64,000 nt of DNA from Parcubacteria group bacterium (GTDB lineage: Bacteria; Patescibacteriota; Minisyncoccia; Phycocordibacterales; CALRBT01), in assembly GCA_943354475.1 (NCBI GenBank), contig CALRBT010000003.1, positions 1,208 to 65,207 on the forward strand. The letters are read 5' to 3'. The position numbers and the translations under genes are program-made. This document shows positions 60,432 to 63,400 of this stretch, one piece after another (position 1 is the first letter of the stretch; every line of letters begins with the position of its first letter). Under the pieces are notes generated by a model. That model made no database searches, was not told the origin of the DNA, and saw nothing but the letters and a program-made list of their open reading frames with translations.

Positions 60432-63400
60432 TTATTGGCTCACCAGCTGGTCTGTGTCCGCCCCACCTTCGACCGTGGTCTCTGGCGTAGTAGTAGAGTT
60501 ATCTATCACAATGTCAGGAGTGGTCGTTCCTGTATCAGTAGGTGTAGTGGTAGAGATTTCAACTGGTGGAACAACAGGCGGTACAATAGGGGTCTCCTCT
60601 ACAGTAGTCTTTGAAGTAAACTCTTTAGCATCTTTCACGGCGAGTGCTACCCAACTAAAGGCGATTGAATCAGGAGCATTCTTATTAATTCTGATAGTAA
60701 AGCCATGAGTATTCTTCTTGGTGACTATGAATTGAATATTATTATCAAAGATGAGGTTTGCGAGGTCGTCATCTGATGATGTAGCAGAACCGCTGTATGC
60801 CAATGACGCCGTAATAATTGGTGTTTGAACGTAGTCACGATCAAAAGTAACTTCGACAATTCTCTCTCCTTCACTAATGACTGCAGTACCACCAGTATCC
60901 GAAGTAAAGTATGGTCGTCCAAAGAACTCAACATCACTACTAAATGAGAGGATGTCCGCACTGCTTCCAATACTATCAACAGTAAGTCCACCTTGAATCA
61001 CCATACCGGCACCAAGAGTCAATCCTGTTGATGACGCCATGAGTTGATTGAGGTTGATACCGCCGACCTGTTCAAGTGTCCCAACACGCGATTCTAAGTT
61101 GGCTGTACTTTCAGTGAGCATAGTGAGAATTGGTGAGTCGATTTCTCCCGCAACAACACGGAGTGCACGCAATTCTGTTGTTGATGTAGTGCCGTCAACC
61201 GCCACATCACCTTGAACAGAGAGTCCGGCATTAAAGGTTGATGATGCCATGAAGACTGCGGCGCCACCAAAATTAGCACCGTTCAAAACCGAGAGAATAT
61301 TCGTTGAGATACCTGTTGAAATAGAATCAAAGATACTTGTTGTACTTGAGCCAATGAGTGCTGTAGTACTTGCAATCTGTGCCTGCTGTTCTTGAACAGC
61401 CTTAGTGAGGATGGCAGTAATGTTTGCATACTGCACGTTATCAGGACGTCCTAGCGCATCTGTTGCAATAAGTCTTGGGTCAACTTTGGCAACATCTTCA
61501 GCAATAAATCCGACGAAATCAGCGGTCCAGTTTGGATCGCTAATAAATCCACCGAGATATTCTGGTTTGTATTTAAAGGTAACTGGAGTAAGTGCCATAA
61601 TCTCAGCAAGTCCACTTTCAACAGTTAATGGTTTTATATCCTGCTTGTAACGTCCTGAGGAAGCGGCACAAGTAGCCACACCTGTTGTATGTGTTATGTT
61701 ACCAGCCGCACCAGCCGCCTGACCATAACAAACTGATTGTCCCGCTGTACTTGATGCAACTAATCCGTAGAAACTAACGGCTCCTGAGACAGAGAGGGAT
61801 CCTTCTACACCAAGCTTTGCTGCAGGGGATGAAGTACCGATACCGATATTTTGATTAGCAGTAATCGTCAGTGCAGGCATACTTGAGGTTGCAAGTGTTG
61901 TATCAGATGAAGTAGCAAGGTAGAAGATTCCCCCTCTTGAAACAAATGACCAGTGTTTGAGGTTTGCTCCAGCATAGGAATCAGTGAGAGTTAACTGTGA
62001 CGAAGTAGCGTTTGCTGCGGCAATCTGGAGTGCCCATTTTGGAGTTGAAGTACCGATACCCACATAACCATTACCTGGAGTTCCTGAAACAATAAATGCT
62101 GGCGTACTACTTCCTTGGTTTGCCACTACAAATGAGGGGTGGTAGGTTCCCATTCCTACCGATAACTTAGCCCATGGAGTCGAGGTGCCAATTCCTACGT
62201 TACCAATGTTGTCTATGTTAAAGAGCGTGGTCGTAGCAGTCGCAGTAGAGCTTGCGATGGTAAACAGGTTTCTTGATATTGCCCCGTCGTTAGGGTTGGC
62301 ATGTACTGAAAGTTTTGCAAGTGGCGTGCTGGAGCCAATACCAACACGTCCATCACCACGCAGCAGCATGATGTTGTTAATGCTTGAGTAGTCTACAGCA
62401 ACAGCGCCGTTGTGAATGCCGAAGTTAATGTAACTACCCGCCGCACTAGTGTCTACAAAAGTTTGCATCGTGTTGTAACGCGTTGTGAGATCTGTCCTGC
62501 CCAAACGCACCTCTCCGAGCGTTGCAAGTCCAGTCATAACGTTAAGCGTTGTGGTTCCAGATTTAAAGTTTGCAAGTTGCGCACCTGCTCCTGCGATACC
62601 AACTTGGGAGGCTGCGGTGTTGTAGATACCTGTAGTTGTATCTCCACCCCAGCTATATGCTGGTGTACCAACTGCGTCAGAGGTGTTACCAAAGAACTGT
62701 CCCCAGGCTGTGATAGCTGTGGTAGAAGCGTATGGCAGTGTGTTTGGTGTTGTTGCAGTAGAAGTGATGGCGCCGCTGATATTTAGTGTTCCATTGGCGG
62801 TTATAGCGCCAACGTTTGAGATGTTAAAGAGAGTTGTGGTAGCAGATGCAGTTGAGGAACCGACGGCAAACAGATTGGTACCTGTCTCCCCGTTATATGC
62901 ATGGAGAGAGAGTTTTGCGAATGGCGTCGAAGAGCCGATACCGACACGAACAGCGTTTGATCCAAGCCCGCCGAGTGCCATAGAGTTTGATGCGCCCACT
63001 ACTGAGTTGGCACCAATAGCCGCTGAATTTGTCATCACCGAGGTAGAAGCGAGGCCGTAGCGGTCTTTTGCTGCACGGTACCCAAGGAAGAGCATGTTGG
63101 TGTCGATAACTGAATTTGAGTTGTCGAGCACGTTTATCGCACCCATGCCTGCCTGGTTACCTATAAATGTGTTTACCGAACCCGAAGTGTTGTAGAAACC
63201 TGCATACGCACCAACGCCAGTATTGCTACTATTCGTATTTAATTGCAATGATTGTTGCCCAACTGCCACGTTTGCTGAGCCACTTACGTTAGACGAAAGC
63301 GTGTTTGTCCCACCAATGGCTACGTTTCCACTACCCGTCGTGTTTAGGATTAAGGCACCTGCTCCCAACCCTACGTTTTGAGTACCAGTGGTGTTTGTTT

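What the first reader, a model, noticed from the sequence alone, without database searches (positions are those of the whole stretch)
61367..61670. Internally placed phage tail-fibre intramolecular-chaperone (S74-like) motif inside the giant fibre protein
SSGRYKQDIKPL...FVGFIAEDVAKVDPRLIATDALGRPDNVQYANITAILTKAVQEQQAQI matches the conserved core of the autoproteolytic chaperone domains of endosialidase/tail-spike proteins (Ser-x-Arg-x-Lys-x-Asp-Ile cleavage box). Those domains are normally the extreme C-terminus and are cleaved off after trimer folding. Here about 300 residues follow it (a Thr/Pro-rich, possibly surface-anchoring tail). The mature fibre may therefore be processed into two parts, or the domain may be used in an unusual internal context. 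It also suggests phage-derived building blocks in a cellular surface structure.
Basis: partly seen in the sequence, partly recalled or inferred. Interest (0 to 1): 0.6.

Follow-up and report, generated by a model that had tools for sequence, protein, structure and literature searches.

The report
Self-cleaving chaperone domain inside giant fibre
A giant surface-fibre gene of a tiny Patescibacteria (CPR) bacterium carries a genuine phage-type self-cutting folding domain that is followed by a lectin-like head and a Thr/Pro-rich tail instead of ending the protein, an arrangement that recurs in its relatives and suggests the fibre is cut free from its own tail end after assembly.

Summary
On the minus strand, 61356-61673 encodes a complete Peptidase_S74 intramolecular-chaperone domain (Pfam 37.8 bits, cut-off 22). 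The Ser-x4-Lys dyad is intact (Ser codon 61659-61661, Lys codon 61644-61646). 303 residues follow the domain: a long helix, a beta-rich neck, an H-type-lectin-fold domain (pLDDT 87-97) and a 47-residue Thr/Pro-rich tail with no membrane or sortase signal.

The gene is at least 1703 aa, and its N-terminus was not recovered. It lies in a cellular Patescibacteria chromosome beside cohesin/dockerin surface proteins, not among phage genes. Upstream of the gene remains unseen.

The internal position is unusual for phages but not for this clade. Of 169 closest S74 relatives, 63 have at least 100 residues after the domain, and a few have a C-terminal membrane helix directly after S74, as MYRF does. 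Ser and Lys are invariant in all of them.

The same lectin cassette also follows a Peptidase_G2-like autocleavage domain in eight other Patescibacteria proteins.

Most likely the S74 domain trimerises the fibre and then cuts at the Ser, severing a 409-aa C-terminal cassette. The role of that cassette is inferred, not shown.

Precedents exist (Bdellovibrio MAT fibres, MYRF), so this is a new variant of a known kind.

The parts
61662..64000 (-). Fibre body (window-frame residues 1-779). It continues at least 515 residues beyond the window edge and carries 12 copies of a V-G-I-G-T/S-x-x-P-x-x-K/L-L motif in the 1703-aa version.
   Evidence: Open frame to the window edge. The L001 assembly extends it to at least 1703 aa with identical DNA. 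PHROG tail-fibre/tail-spike families match here (phrog_9942 E 9e-21, phrog_4636, phrog_1980). The motif resembles the MAT/MYRF capping loop V-G-G/N-pi-x-x-P-x-x-x-L (PMC10769870).
61356..61673 (-). Peptidase_S74 intramolecular chaperone / autoprotease domain (window-frame residues 776-881; the Pfam-matched part is 61470-61661).
   Evidence: Pfam 37.8 bits against a cut-off of 22. Family HMM E 3.8e-43. Profile hits to PDB 6f45, 8jov and 7dc3. 9586 representatives in 1.84 billion proteins match at E<=1e-3.
61659..61661 (-). Codon of the predicted nucleophile Ser (window-frame S780, S1295 in L001 numbering). The predicted scissile bond is Ala779|Ser780.
   Evidence: Aligns with the Ser of SDxxxK in 6f45 and 8jov. 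Ser is present in 169 of 169 relatives' domains.
61644..61646 (-). Codon of the predicted general-base Lys (window-frame K785, K1300 in L001 numbering).
   Evidence: Same alignments. Lys is present in 169 of 169 relatives.
61284..61433 (-). Long helix that ends the S74 domain and runs about 25 residues beyond it (window-frame 856-905); a presumed trimeric coiled coil.
   Evidence: AlphaFold2 monomer model, helix 100-149, pLDDT only about 40-68. The helix aligns with the C-terminal helix of solved S74 domains. The coiled-coil state is inferred.
60909..61283 (-). Beta-rich spacer/neck (window-frame 906-1030). It ends in the conserved 'FFGRPYFTSDTGG' lead-in of the C-terminal cassette.
   Evidence: Short strands at low confidence. 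The last about 40 residues are conserved with the other cassette-bearing proteins.
60576..60908 (-). H-type-lectin-fold domain (window-frame 1031-1141).
   Evidence: pLDDT 87-97. Foldseek against PDB finds Helix agglutinins 4q56/2ce6/2ccv, SLL-2 3wmp, discoidin II 2vme, the cyanophage Pam1 tailspike receptor-binding domain 7eea (rmsd 2.4 A over 88 columns) and R-pyocin fibres, with probability 0.97-1.0 and E 0.003-0.04. BFVD returns phage 'H-type lectin domain' and tail-fibre proteins at E 1e-5 to 1e-3. Pfam H_lectin scores only 11.9 bits here but 23.4 bits in relative P0016. NCBI and Pfam label several module homologues H-type lectin.
60435..60575 (-). Acidic Thr/Pro-rich low-complexity tail (47 residues, 14 Thr, 5 Pro); the stop codon is at 60432-60434.
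   Evidence: Composition; modelled as disordered. There is no TM-like stretch after S74. 30 of the 63 extended relatives end in comparable T/P/S-rich tails.
55335..60347 (-). Downstream surface-protein cluster that travels with the fibre gene: a 176-aa N-terminal-TM protein, a 419-aa protein (signal peptide, Big_6/fn3, dockerin), a 313-aa protein (signal peptide, C-terminal TM) and a 714-aa protein (signal peptide, cohesin).
   Evidence: Pfam; termini; same gene order in L001-L004; no PHROG matches. Any functional link to the fibre is inferred from adjacency only.

Best explanation
This is the C-terminal third of a giant (at least 1703 aa) cell-surface fibre of a Patescibacteria/CPR bacterium. 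The fibre is built from phage-tail-fibre-type repeats and carries a genuine, probably active, Peptidase_S74 intramolecular chaperone.

Proposed mechanism: three chains are exported (complete relatives start with signal peptides). Their S74 domains trimerise and nucleate folding of the upstream fibre. The Ser780-Lys785 dyad then cuts the Ala779|Ser780 bond. This separates the mature fibre from a 409-residue C-terminal cassette made of chaperone, helix, beta-neck, H-type-lectin-fold head and Thr/Pro tail.

The most likely role of that cassette is a temporary tether or assembly platform at the cell surface that is cut away once the fibre has folded. That would be a wall-side counterpart of the membrane helix that follows S74 in some relatives and in MYRF.

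Shown: the domain identity, the intact dyad, the architecture, its recurrence in relatives, and the cellular context. Inferred: trimerisation, cleavage, and above all the role of the cassette.
For: - S74 identity and completeness.
- Dyad: Ser and Lys are invariant in 169 of 169 related domains, including 64 of 64 with at least 100 residues after the domain and 29 of 29 with at least 200. There is therefore no sign that internal copies have lost catalysis.
- Cleavage at the homologous Ser was shown experimentally for a cellular fibre (Bd3182 S782, blocked by S782A; PMC10769870).
- Cellular setting: GluRS, MurG, DnaK, AlaRS, LeuRS, YchF and a cohesin/dockerin surface cluster. Neighbours have no PHROG hits. 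GC3 is 0.405, within the housekeeping range of 0.28-0.45.
- Homologues are named Patescibacteria/Parcubacteria/Paceibacterota. Complete relatives begin with signal peptides.
- Post-S74 segments recur: tails of at least 100 aa in 63 of 169 relatives, and T/P/S-rich ends in 30 of those.
- P0106, P0181 and P0032 have a signal peptide, fibre, S74, then a C-terminal TM helix with a basic tail. In those proteins the part after the cut is plainly an anchor.
- The same beta-neck, lectin and T/P cassette lies downstream of a second, unrelated autocleaving chaperone type in 8 of 8 S74-less cassette proteins with enough upstream sequence. This is a G2-like domain whose 'GADLAE' aligns on the phi29 gp12 S691|D692..E695 site (hhalign E 1.4e-4, probability 52%). 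It argues that the cassette belongs functionally with the cut-off side.
Against: - No cleavage data exist for this protein or any Patescibacteria homologue.
- The cassette has no recognisable anchor (no TM, no LPXTG, no conserved terminus).
- H-type-lectin-like domains in phages sit at the distal receptor-binding tip of fibres. That fits a 'working tip' at least as well as an 'anchor'.
- The S74 region itself was modelled poorly as a monomer (pLDDT 33-42 for most of the core), and no trimer model could be made.
- The G2-like assignment is weak (probability 52%; Pfam PF11962 in only 2 of 7 members, E 0.0015).
- The relatives were ranked by similarity to a query that contains Ser and Lys, which slightly favours conservation.
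- The N-terminus and upstream context are missing.
Confidence: 0.5

Rival explanations
1. Uncut fibre: the S74 domain serves only as an internal trimerisation knot, and the lectin-fold domain is the permanent distal receptor-binding tip of one continuous fibre used to bind a host cell.
For: H-type-lectin-like domains are C-terminal tips of phage tailspikes, pyocin fibres and tail fibres. Bdellovibrio non-S74 MAT fibres end in lectin, TNF or beta-sandwich tips. Patescibacteria are typically epibionts that need host adhesins (general knowledge).
Against: Ser and Lys are strictly kept in all 64 relatives with long tails, which is not expected if catalysis were dispensable. All characterised S74 domains with the dyad cleave (PMC10769870; PMC9409872). 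The same cassette follows a second kind of autocleaving domain.
Confidence: 0.25
2. Polyprotein: cleavage happens, and both products are functional end products. One is the long fibre. The other is a separate short trimeric 'stalked lectin' (S74, coiled coil, lectin, mucin-like tail) that is secreted or decorates the surface.
For: Every element of the 409-aa fragment is of a kind that forms trimers in known proteins (S74, coiled coil, H-type lectins). Relatives carry 2-3 tandem [repeat + S74] units, for example P0041 with three, which reads naturally as serial processing.
Against: No evidence that released S74 fragments are stable or functional in any system. Purely architectural inference.
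Confidence: 0.15
3. Ordinary prophage or tailocin tail-fibre gene whose structural neighbours lie just beyond the window edge.
For: PHROG tail-fibre families match the body. A canonical S74 relative, P0019, sits in a phage-like block of unannotated ORFs (L007). Upstream of the gene was never seen: L001 and L002 end inside the gene, and L003 and L004 hold only its last 57 codons.
Against: All 60 kb downstream is cellular. The immediate neighbours are secreted cohesin/dockerin proteins without PHROG hits. GC3 is native. A length of at least 1703 aa and the signal peptides of complete relatives fit a Sec-exported cell protein, not a virion part. The closest S74 relative, P0014, is also next to cellular genes such as a Mur ligase.
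Confidence: 0.08
4. Assembly or gene-fusion artefact that joins a fibre gene to a separate lectin gene.
For: Assemblies tend to break at this gene.
Against: The 3567 window bases are identical in an independent ENA assembly, and the gene is also present in a Logan assembly of another run. There is no stop or frame change across the junction. The same S74 plus cassette order is seen in P0016 and P0102.
Confidence: 0.02

Closest known systems
Bdellovibrio bacteriovorus MAT (mosaic adhesive trimer) fibres, S74 subgroup, e.g. Bd3182 (Caulton et al. 2024, PMC10769870)
   Same: A chromosomal, Sec-exported, phage-tail-fibre-like trimeric fibre of a bacterium that lives on other bacteria. It has an S74 chaperone/protease with the S-x4-K motif and repeated V-G-x-x-x-x-P-x-x-x-L-type loops before it.
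   Different: MAT fibres end either in S74 (about 140 aa are released) or in an adhesive tip, never both. Here S74 is followed by a 303-aa lectin cassette. The position after the Ser is Ser rather than Asp. The phylum differs and the protein is much larger (at least 1703 aa against about 1000 aa). The defining N-terminal 130-aa domain could not be checked.
MYRF (myelin regulatory factor) ICA domain
   Same: An internal S74/ICA domain. Trimerisation followed by self-cleavage separates an N-terminal trimer from a C-terminal part that stays behind (PMC9409872; PDB 7dc3 hit). Relatives P0106, P0181 and P0032 even share the S74-then-TM layout.
   Different: MYRF is a eukaryotic ER-membrane transcription factor. 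This protein has no TM after S74, the upstream part is an extracellular fibre rather than a DNA-binding domain, and similarity is only at profile level (E 6e-4).
Phage C-terminal intramolecular chaperone domains (K1F endosialidase, T5 pb1, S16 gp37)
   Same: The same domain family and catalytic motif, placed after a trimeric fibre or beta-helix (6f45, E 6.6e-12).
   Different: In phages the domain is the extreme C-terminus and is discarded. tblastn against 50,697 phage records matched only the S74 core and never the extension.
H-type lectins (Helix pomatia agglutinin, discoidin, SLL-2) and lectin-like tips of phage tailspikes and R-pyocin fibres
   Same: Fold-level match of residues 1031-1141. 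These lectins are trimeric (general knowledge), which fits a trimeric fibre.
   Different: Sequence-level membership is not reached for this protein (Pfam 11.9 bits against a cut-off of 24). Sugar-binding residues were not assessed. Here the domain lies after an autoprotease rather than directly at the end of a fibre shaft.

Membership tests
Peptidase_S74 / intramolecular chaperone auto-processing domain (PF13884) | Profile match above the curated threshold | tested here: met
   37.8 bits against a cut-off of 22, E 2.3e-9, profile positions 1-56 of 58. PDB profile hits 6f45, 8jov and 7dc3.
Peptidase_S74 / intramolecular chaperone auto-processing domain (PF13884) | Catalytic Ser-Lys dyad in the S-[D]-x-x-x-K register | tested here: met
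   S780 and K785 align with SDRRIK (6f45) and SDERLK (8jov). They are invariant in 169 relatives. The Asp position is Ser, as in most of these relatives.
Peptidase_S74 / intramolecular chaperone auto-processing domain (PF13884) | Follows a trimeric fibre or beta-helix, and ends in a long helix | tested here: inconclusive
   Tail-fibre PHROG matches and 12 capping-loop-like motifs lie upstream. A helix is predicted at model residues 100-149, but at low pLDDT and as a monomer only.
Peptidase_S74 / intramolecular chaperone auto-processing domain (PF13884) | Autoproteolysis at the Ser | not testable with these tools
   Needs recombinant wild type against S-to-A mutant, or proteomics.
Canonical phage-type C-terminal IMC | The domain is the extreme C-terminus of the protein | tested here: not met
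   303 residues follow the domain core. The median for 169 relatives is 29.
Bdellovibrio-type MAT fibre family | [quoted passage not shown] | not testable with these tools
   The N-terminus lies beyond every contig recovered.
Bdellovibrio-type MAT fibre family | The fibre terminates either in S74 or in an adhesive tip domain | tested here: not met
   Both are present in series: S74, then a lectin-fold domain.
MYRF-like anchored ICA proteins | A transmembrane segment C-terminal to the S74/ICA domain | tested here: not met
   Maximum 19-residue Kyte-Doolittle mean in the tail is 1.34. Relatives P0106, P0181 and P0032 do have one.
H-type lectin (PF09458) | Profile match above threshold, or a clear fold match | tested here: inconclusive
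   This protein scores 11.9 bits (E 0.25) against a cut-off of 24. P0016 scores 23.4 bits. Precomputed PF09458 is present on P0221, P0244, P0247 and P0272, and NCBI gives the lectin name to P0215. Foldseek probability is 0.97-1.0 to HPA, SLL-2 and discoidin, but E is only 0.02-0.04. The module profile gives no PDB sequence hit.
Prophage tail-fibre gene | Embedded among phage structural genes | tested here: inconclusive
   The downstream side is cellular. The upstream side was not recovered.

The most novel reading that the evidence does not exclude
Patescibacteria have turned phage 'fold-then-cut' chaperone domains of two unrelated types (S74 and G2-like) into a general release device. Giant surface proteins would be exported with a C-terminal lectin plus Thr/Pro cassette, or in relatives a membrane helix, that holds the chains at the envelope while they trimerise. 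The autoprotease then cuts the finished fibre free. This would be a bacterial counterpart of MYRF activation and a previously undescribed step in building the host-contact surface of CPR cells.
Probability: 0.25. Interest if true: 0.65.

Novelty: new variant of a known kind. Interest (0 to 1): 0.42.

Why it matters
How ultra-small CPR/Patescibacteria cells attach to and recognise their hosts is largely unknown, and their giant surface proteins are mostly unannotated. This gene shows that at least one such giant protein is a phage-type trimeric fibre with a built-in self-cutting chaperone. It also shows that in this phylum the chaperone is routinely followed by further modules: a lectin-fold cassette, a membrane helix, or more S74 units. 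That gives a concrete, cheap experiment (wild type against a Ser-to-Ala mutant) and a precise cleavage site to look for in metaproteomes. It extends the Bdellovibrio MAT-fibre concept to another lineage that lives on other microbes. It does not overturn anything: the domain, its chemistry and its use in cellular fibres are already known.

Tried and rejected
- Recovering the N-terminus and upstream context failed. Exact-protein look-ups of three neighbouring genes returned only contigs that either end inside the fibre gene (L001, L002) or stop at its last 57 codons (L003, L004). A genome-contig scan with the N-terminal 400 aa found no relative.
- phmmer of the C-terminal 455 aa against the PDB found nothing; only a family profile reached solved S74 domains.
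- NCBIfam gave no meaningful hit.
- A profile of the lectin cassette against PDB sequences gave only low-complexity noise.
- The third homologue search, with a cassette profile, returned only proteins of at most 253 aa, mostly fragments that start inside the module. It could not test what lies upstream of the cassette on a larger sample.
- The AlphaFold2 monomer model of the S74 region was too poor to use.
- Foreign origin because of high GC (48% against 41%) was rejected. The excess is at codon position 2, reflecting Thr/Gly/Ser/Ala-rich composition, and GC3 is normal.
- Rfam found no RNA families in the window.
- Literature searches found no paper on S74 domains in Patescibacteria or on S74 followed by an H-type lectin.
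Full report
**Observation**

It lies in a single open frame that runs from the stop codon at 60432-60434 to the window edge. An independent ENA assembly (L001) carries the identical 3567 bases and extends the frame to 1703 codons, still without a start. I use window-frame numbering, in which residue 1 is codon 63996-63998. L001 numbering is window-frame numbering plus 515.

**Is it an S74 domain?**

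Yes.
- Pfam PF13884 matches residues 780-843 with E 2.3e-9 and 37.8 bits against a gathering score of 22.
- phmmer of a 201-aa segment against 1.84 billion representatives found 9586 proteins at E<=1e-3.
- An HMM of the core built from close relatives matches residues 776-881 (nt 61356-61673) with E 3.8e-43, and matches nowhere else in the window.
- A profile of relatives hits solved S74 domains: phage S16 gp37 (6f45, E 6.6e-12), a tail fibre (8jov) and MYRF (7dc3, E 6e-4). Our 'SSGRYK' is placed on 'SDRRIK' and 'SDERLK'.

The nucleophile is therefore the first Ser (S780, codon 61659-61661) and the base is K785 (codon 61644-61646). This is the published SDxxxK register (PMC10769870).

**What follows the domain?**

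303 residues follow the core. An AlphaFold2 monomer model shows:
- a long helix (residues 856-905, low confidence);
- a beta-rich, poorly modelled neck (906-1030);
- a confidently folded domain (1031-1141, pLDDT 87-97);
- a disordered 47-residue tail with 14 Thr and 5 Pro.

Foldseek places the folded domain with H-type lectins: Helix agglutinins 4q56/2ce6/2ccv, SLL-2 3wmp and discoidin II 2vme. It also matches the C-terminal receptor-binding parts of a cyanophage tailspike (7eea, rmsd 2.4 A) and of R-pyocin fibres. In BFVD it matches phage proteins named 'H-type lectin domain' or 'tail fibre'.

At sequence level, Pfam H_lectin is sub-threshold here (11.9 bits). It is nearly at threshold in relative P0016 (23.4 bits against 24). 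Several module homologues carry the Pfam or NCBI H-type lectin label. I therefore call it an H-type-lectin fold, with family membership inconclusive. The tail has no TM-like stretch, no LPXTG and no conserved terminal motif.

**Context**

The window is a cellular chromosome:
- GluRS, MurG, Asx-tRNA synthetase, DnaK, AlaRS, a histidine kinase, LeuRS and YchF are present.
- Nearly all genes lie on one strand.
- The four genes just downstream of the fibre gene are secreted or membrane proteins, including a dockerin protein and a cohesin protein. None matches a PHROG.
- The gene's raised GC (48% against 41%) sits at codon position 2. GC3 (0.405) is within the housekeeping range.
- Homologues are labelled Patescibacteria, Parcubacteria or Paceibacterota.
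- Complete relatives begin with signal peptides.
- The closest S74 relative, P0014, is also beside cellular genes. A canonical, tail-less relative, P0019, lies in a phage-like block.

**How unusual is the internal position?**

It is unusual compared with phages. tblastn against 50,697 phage records matched only the S74 core and never the extension.

It is not unusual within the clade. For 169 S74-bearing relatives, the length after the core has a median of 29 residues:
- 63 relatives (37%) have at least 100 residues;
- 25 have at least 200;
- 9 have at least 300;
- 30 of the 63 extended ones end in T/P/S-rich tails.

Five relatives carry two or three S74 units, with three in P0041. Several have a C-terminal membrane helix plus a basic tail directly after S74. 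These include complete proteins with signal peptides: P0106, P0181 and P0032. That is the MYRF layout (PMC9409872). This very lectin cassette follows S74 only in P0016 and P0102.

**Is the protease likely to be active?**

Ser and Lys are present in all 169 aligned domains. That includes 64 of 64 with tails of at least 100 residues and 29 of 29 with at least 200. The sample was chosen by similarity to a query that contains both residues, which slightly favours this outcome. Even so, there is no hint of decay in internal copies. Self-cleavage at the homologous Ser was demonstrated for the cellular fibre Bd3182 and abolished by S782A (PMC10769870).

**An unexpected link**

The cassette (conserved 'FFGRPYFTSDTGG' neck, lectin fold, T/P tail) also ends other Patescibacteria proteins that lack S74. 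All eight with enough upstream sequence carry a conserved domain that begins 'GADLAE(R/N)Y'.
- hhalign places this motif on 'WSDFAEYF' of phi29 gp12. By the frame and my recollection of the literature, that is the S691|D692...E695 autocleavage site of Peptidase_G2 (E 1.4e-4, probability 52%).
- Pfam PF11962 matches 2 of 7 members weakly.
- The Asp and Glu are invariant in the seven members.

So the same cassette appears after two unrelated 'fold-then-cut' domains. This assignment is only moderately supported.

**Mechanism**

The best-supported reading is as follows. The S74 domain trimerises and helps fold the upstream fibre. It then cuts Ala779|Ser780. This separates the fibre from a 409-residue cassette.

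What the cassette does is inferred. I favour a temporary tether or assembly platform at the envelope that is cut away, for three reasons:
- relatives place a membrane anchor in the same position;
- the cassette associates with autocleaving domains of two types;
- in MYRF the same logic is established.

Two alternatives remain open:
- a polyprotein that yields a fibre plus an independent stalked lectin;
- an uncut fibre with the lectin as its permanent tip. This is disfavoured by the invariant dyad, but it fits where such lectin domains sit in phage fibres.

**Comparison and novelty**

The closest known system is the Bdellovibrio MAT fibre family. Those are cellular, S74-terminated, phage-like trimeric fibres of a bacterium that preys on bacteria. 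MAT fibres end in either S74 or an adhesive tip, whereas this protein has both in series. MYRF is the known case of an internal S74.

The domain, its chemistry and its cellular use are known. The S74-plus-lectin-cassette architecture, its recurrence in Patescibacteria, and the parallel with a G2-like domain are, as far as my literature searches show, undescribed. Verdict: a real feature and a new variant of a known kind, of moderate interest.

Noticed in passing
P0005, P0006, P0008, P0009, P0010, P0013, P0017, P0018 (homologues of window 60435-61046): The fibre's C-terminal lectin cassette also ends Patescibacteria proteins that carry a conserved 'GADLAE...GVVSTDPGF...GRVPVKVSTENG' domain about 250-350 aa upstream. 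This domain aligns on the Peptidase_G2 autocleavage site of phi29 gp12 (hhalign E 1.4e-4, probability 52%; Pfam G2 weak in 2 of 7). tblastn finds it in jumbo Pseudomonas phage virion proteins.
   Followed up: partly
P0106, P0181, P0032 (also P0098, P0069, P0107, P0058): Bacterial proteins with a signal peptide, a fibre, S74, and then directly a C-terminal transmembrane helix and basic tail. This is the same S74-then-TM topology as eukaryotic MYRF.
   Followed up: partly
P0041 (1014 aa); P0036, P0073, P0097, P0141: Two or three tandem [beta-helix repeat + S74] units in one protein, all with the Ser/Lys motif. This suggests serial self-processing into several pieces. P0064 has an S74 domain overlapped or followed by a G2-like domain.
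   Followed up: no
window 49470-52352 (-): The leucyl-tRNA synthetase (960 aa) has a NUDIX hydrolase domain (PF00293, E 1.9e-12) inserted at residues 395-512, just after the editing domain. The same 960-aa architecture is present in L001.
   Followed up: no
window 55335-60347 (-): A cohesin-bearing protein (714 aa) and a dockerin-bearing protein (419 aa with Big_6/fn3) lie next to each other and to the fibre gene, with two small membrane-anchored proteins. This is a cellulosome-style pairing in a CPR surface-gene cluster. The gene order is conserved in L001-L004, with length variants of the 313-aa and 714-aa proteins.
   Followed up: partly
window 48323-49405 (-): A 360-aa protein combines Sigma-70 region 4 (E 1.7e-15) with a HARE-HTH domain (E 2.1e-8) and has no other sigma regions detected.
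   Followed up: no
L001 1-5112; L002 1-4584; L003/L004 3-176: Four independent assemblies all break inside the fibre gene or within about 200 nt of its 3' end. This is probably caused by its internal repeats or strain variation. Giant fibre genes of this kind will be systematically truncated in metagenome catalogues.
   Followed up: no
L007 (JGI Ga0642625_00899, 31225-53057): A canonical C-terminal-S74 relative (P0019, 610 aa) sits after two large unannotated ORFs in a block of small unannotated ORFs with a TnpB/Cas12f-like gene. This is possibly a phage of a Patescibacteria host that carries the ancestral tail-fibre form.
   Followed up: no
P0102 residues 1-90: One of the two other proteins with S74 plus this lectin cassette starts with a sequence that looks like the end of an intein/Hint domain ('...RVYDIE'), which suggests a further self-processing element. 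This is judged by eye only.
   Followed up: no
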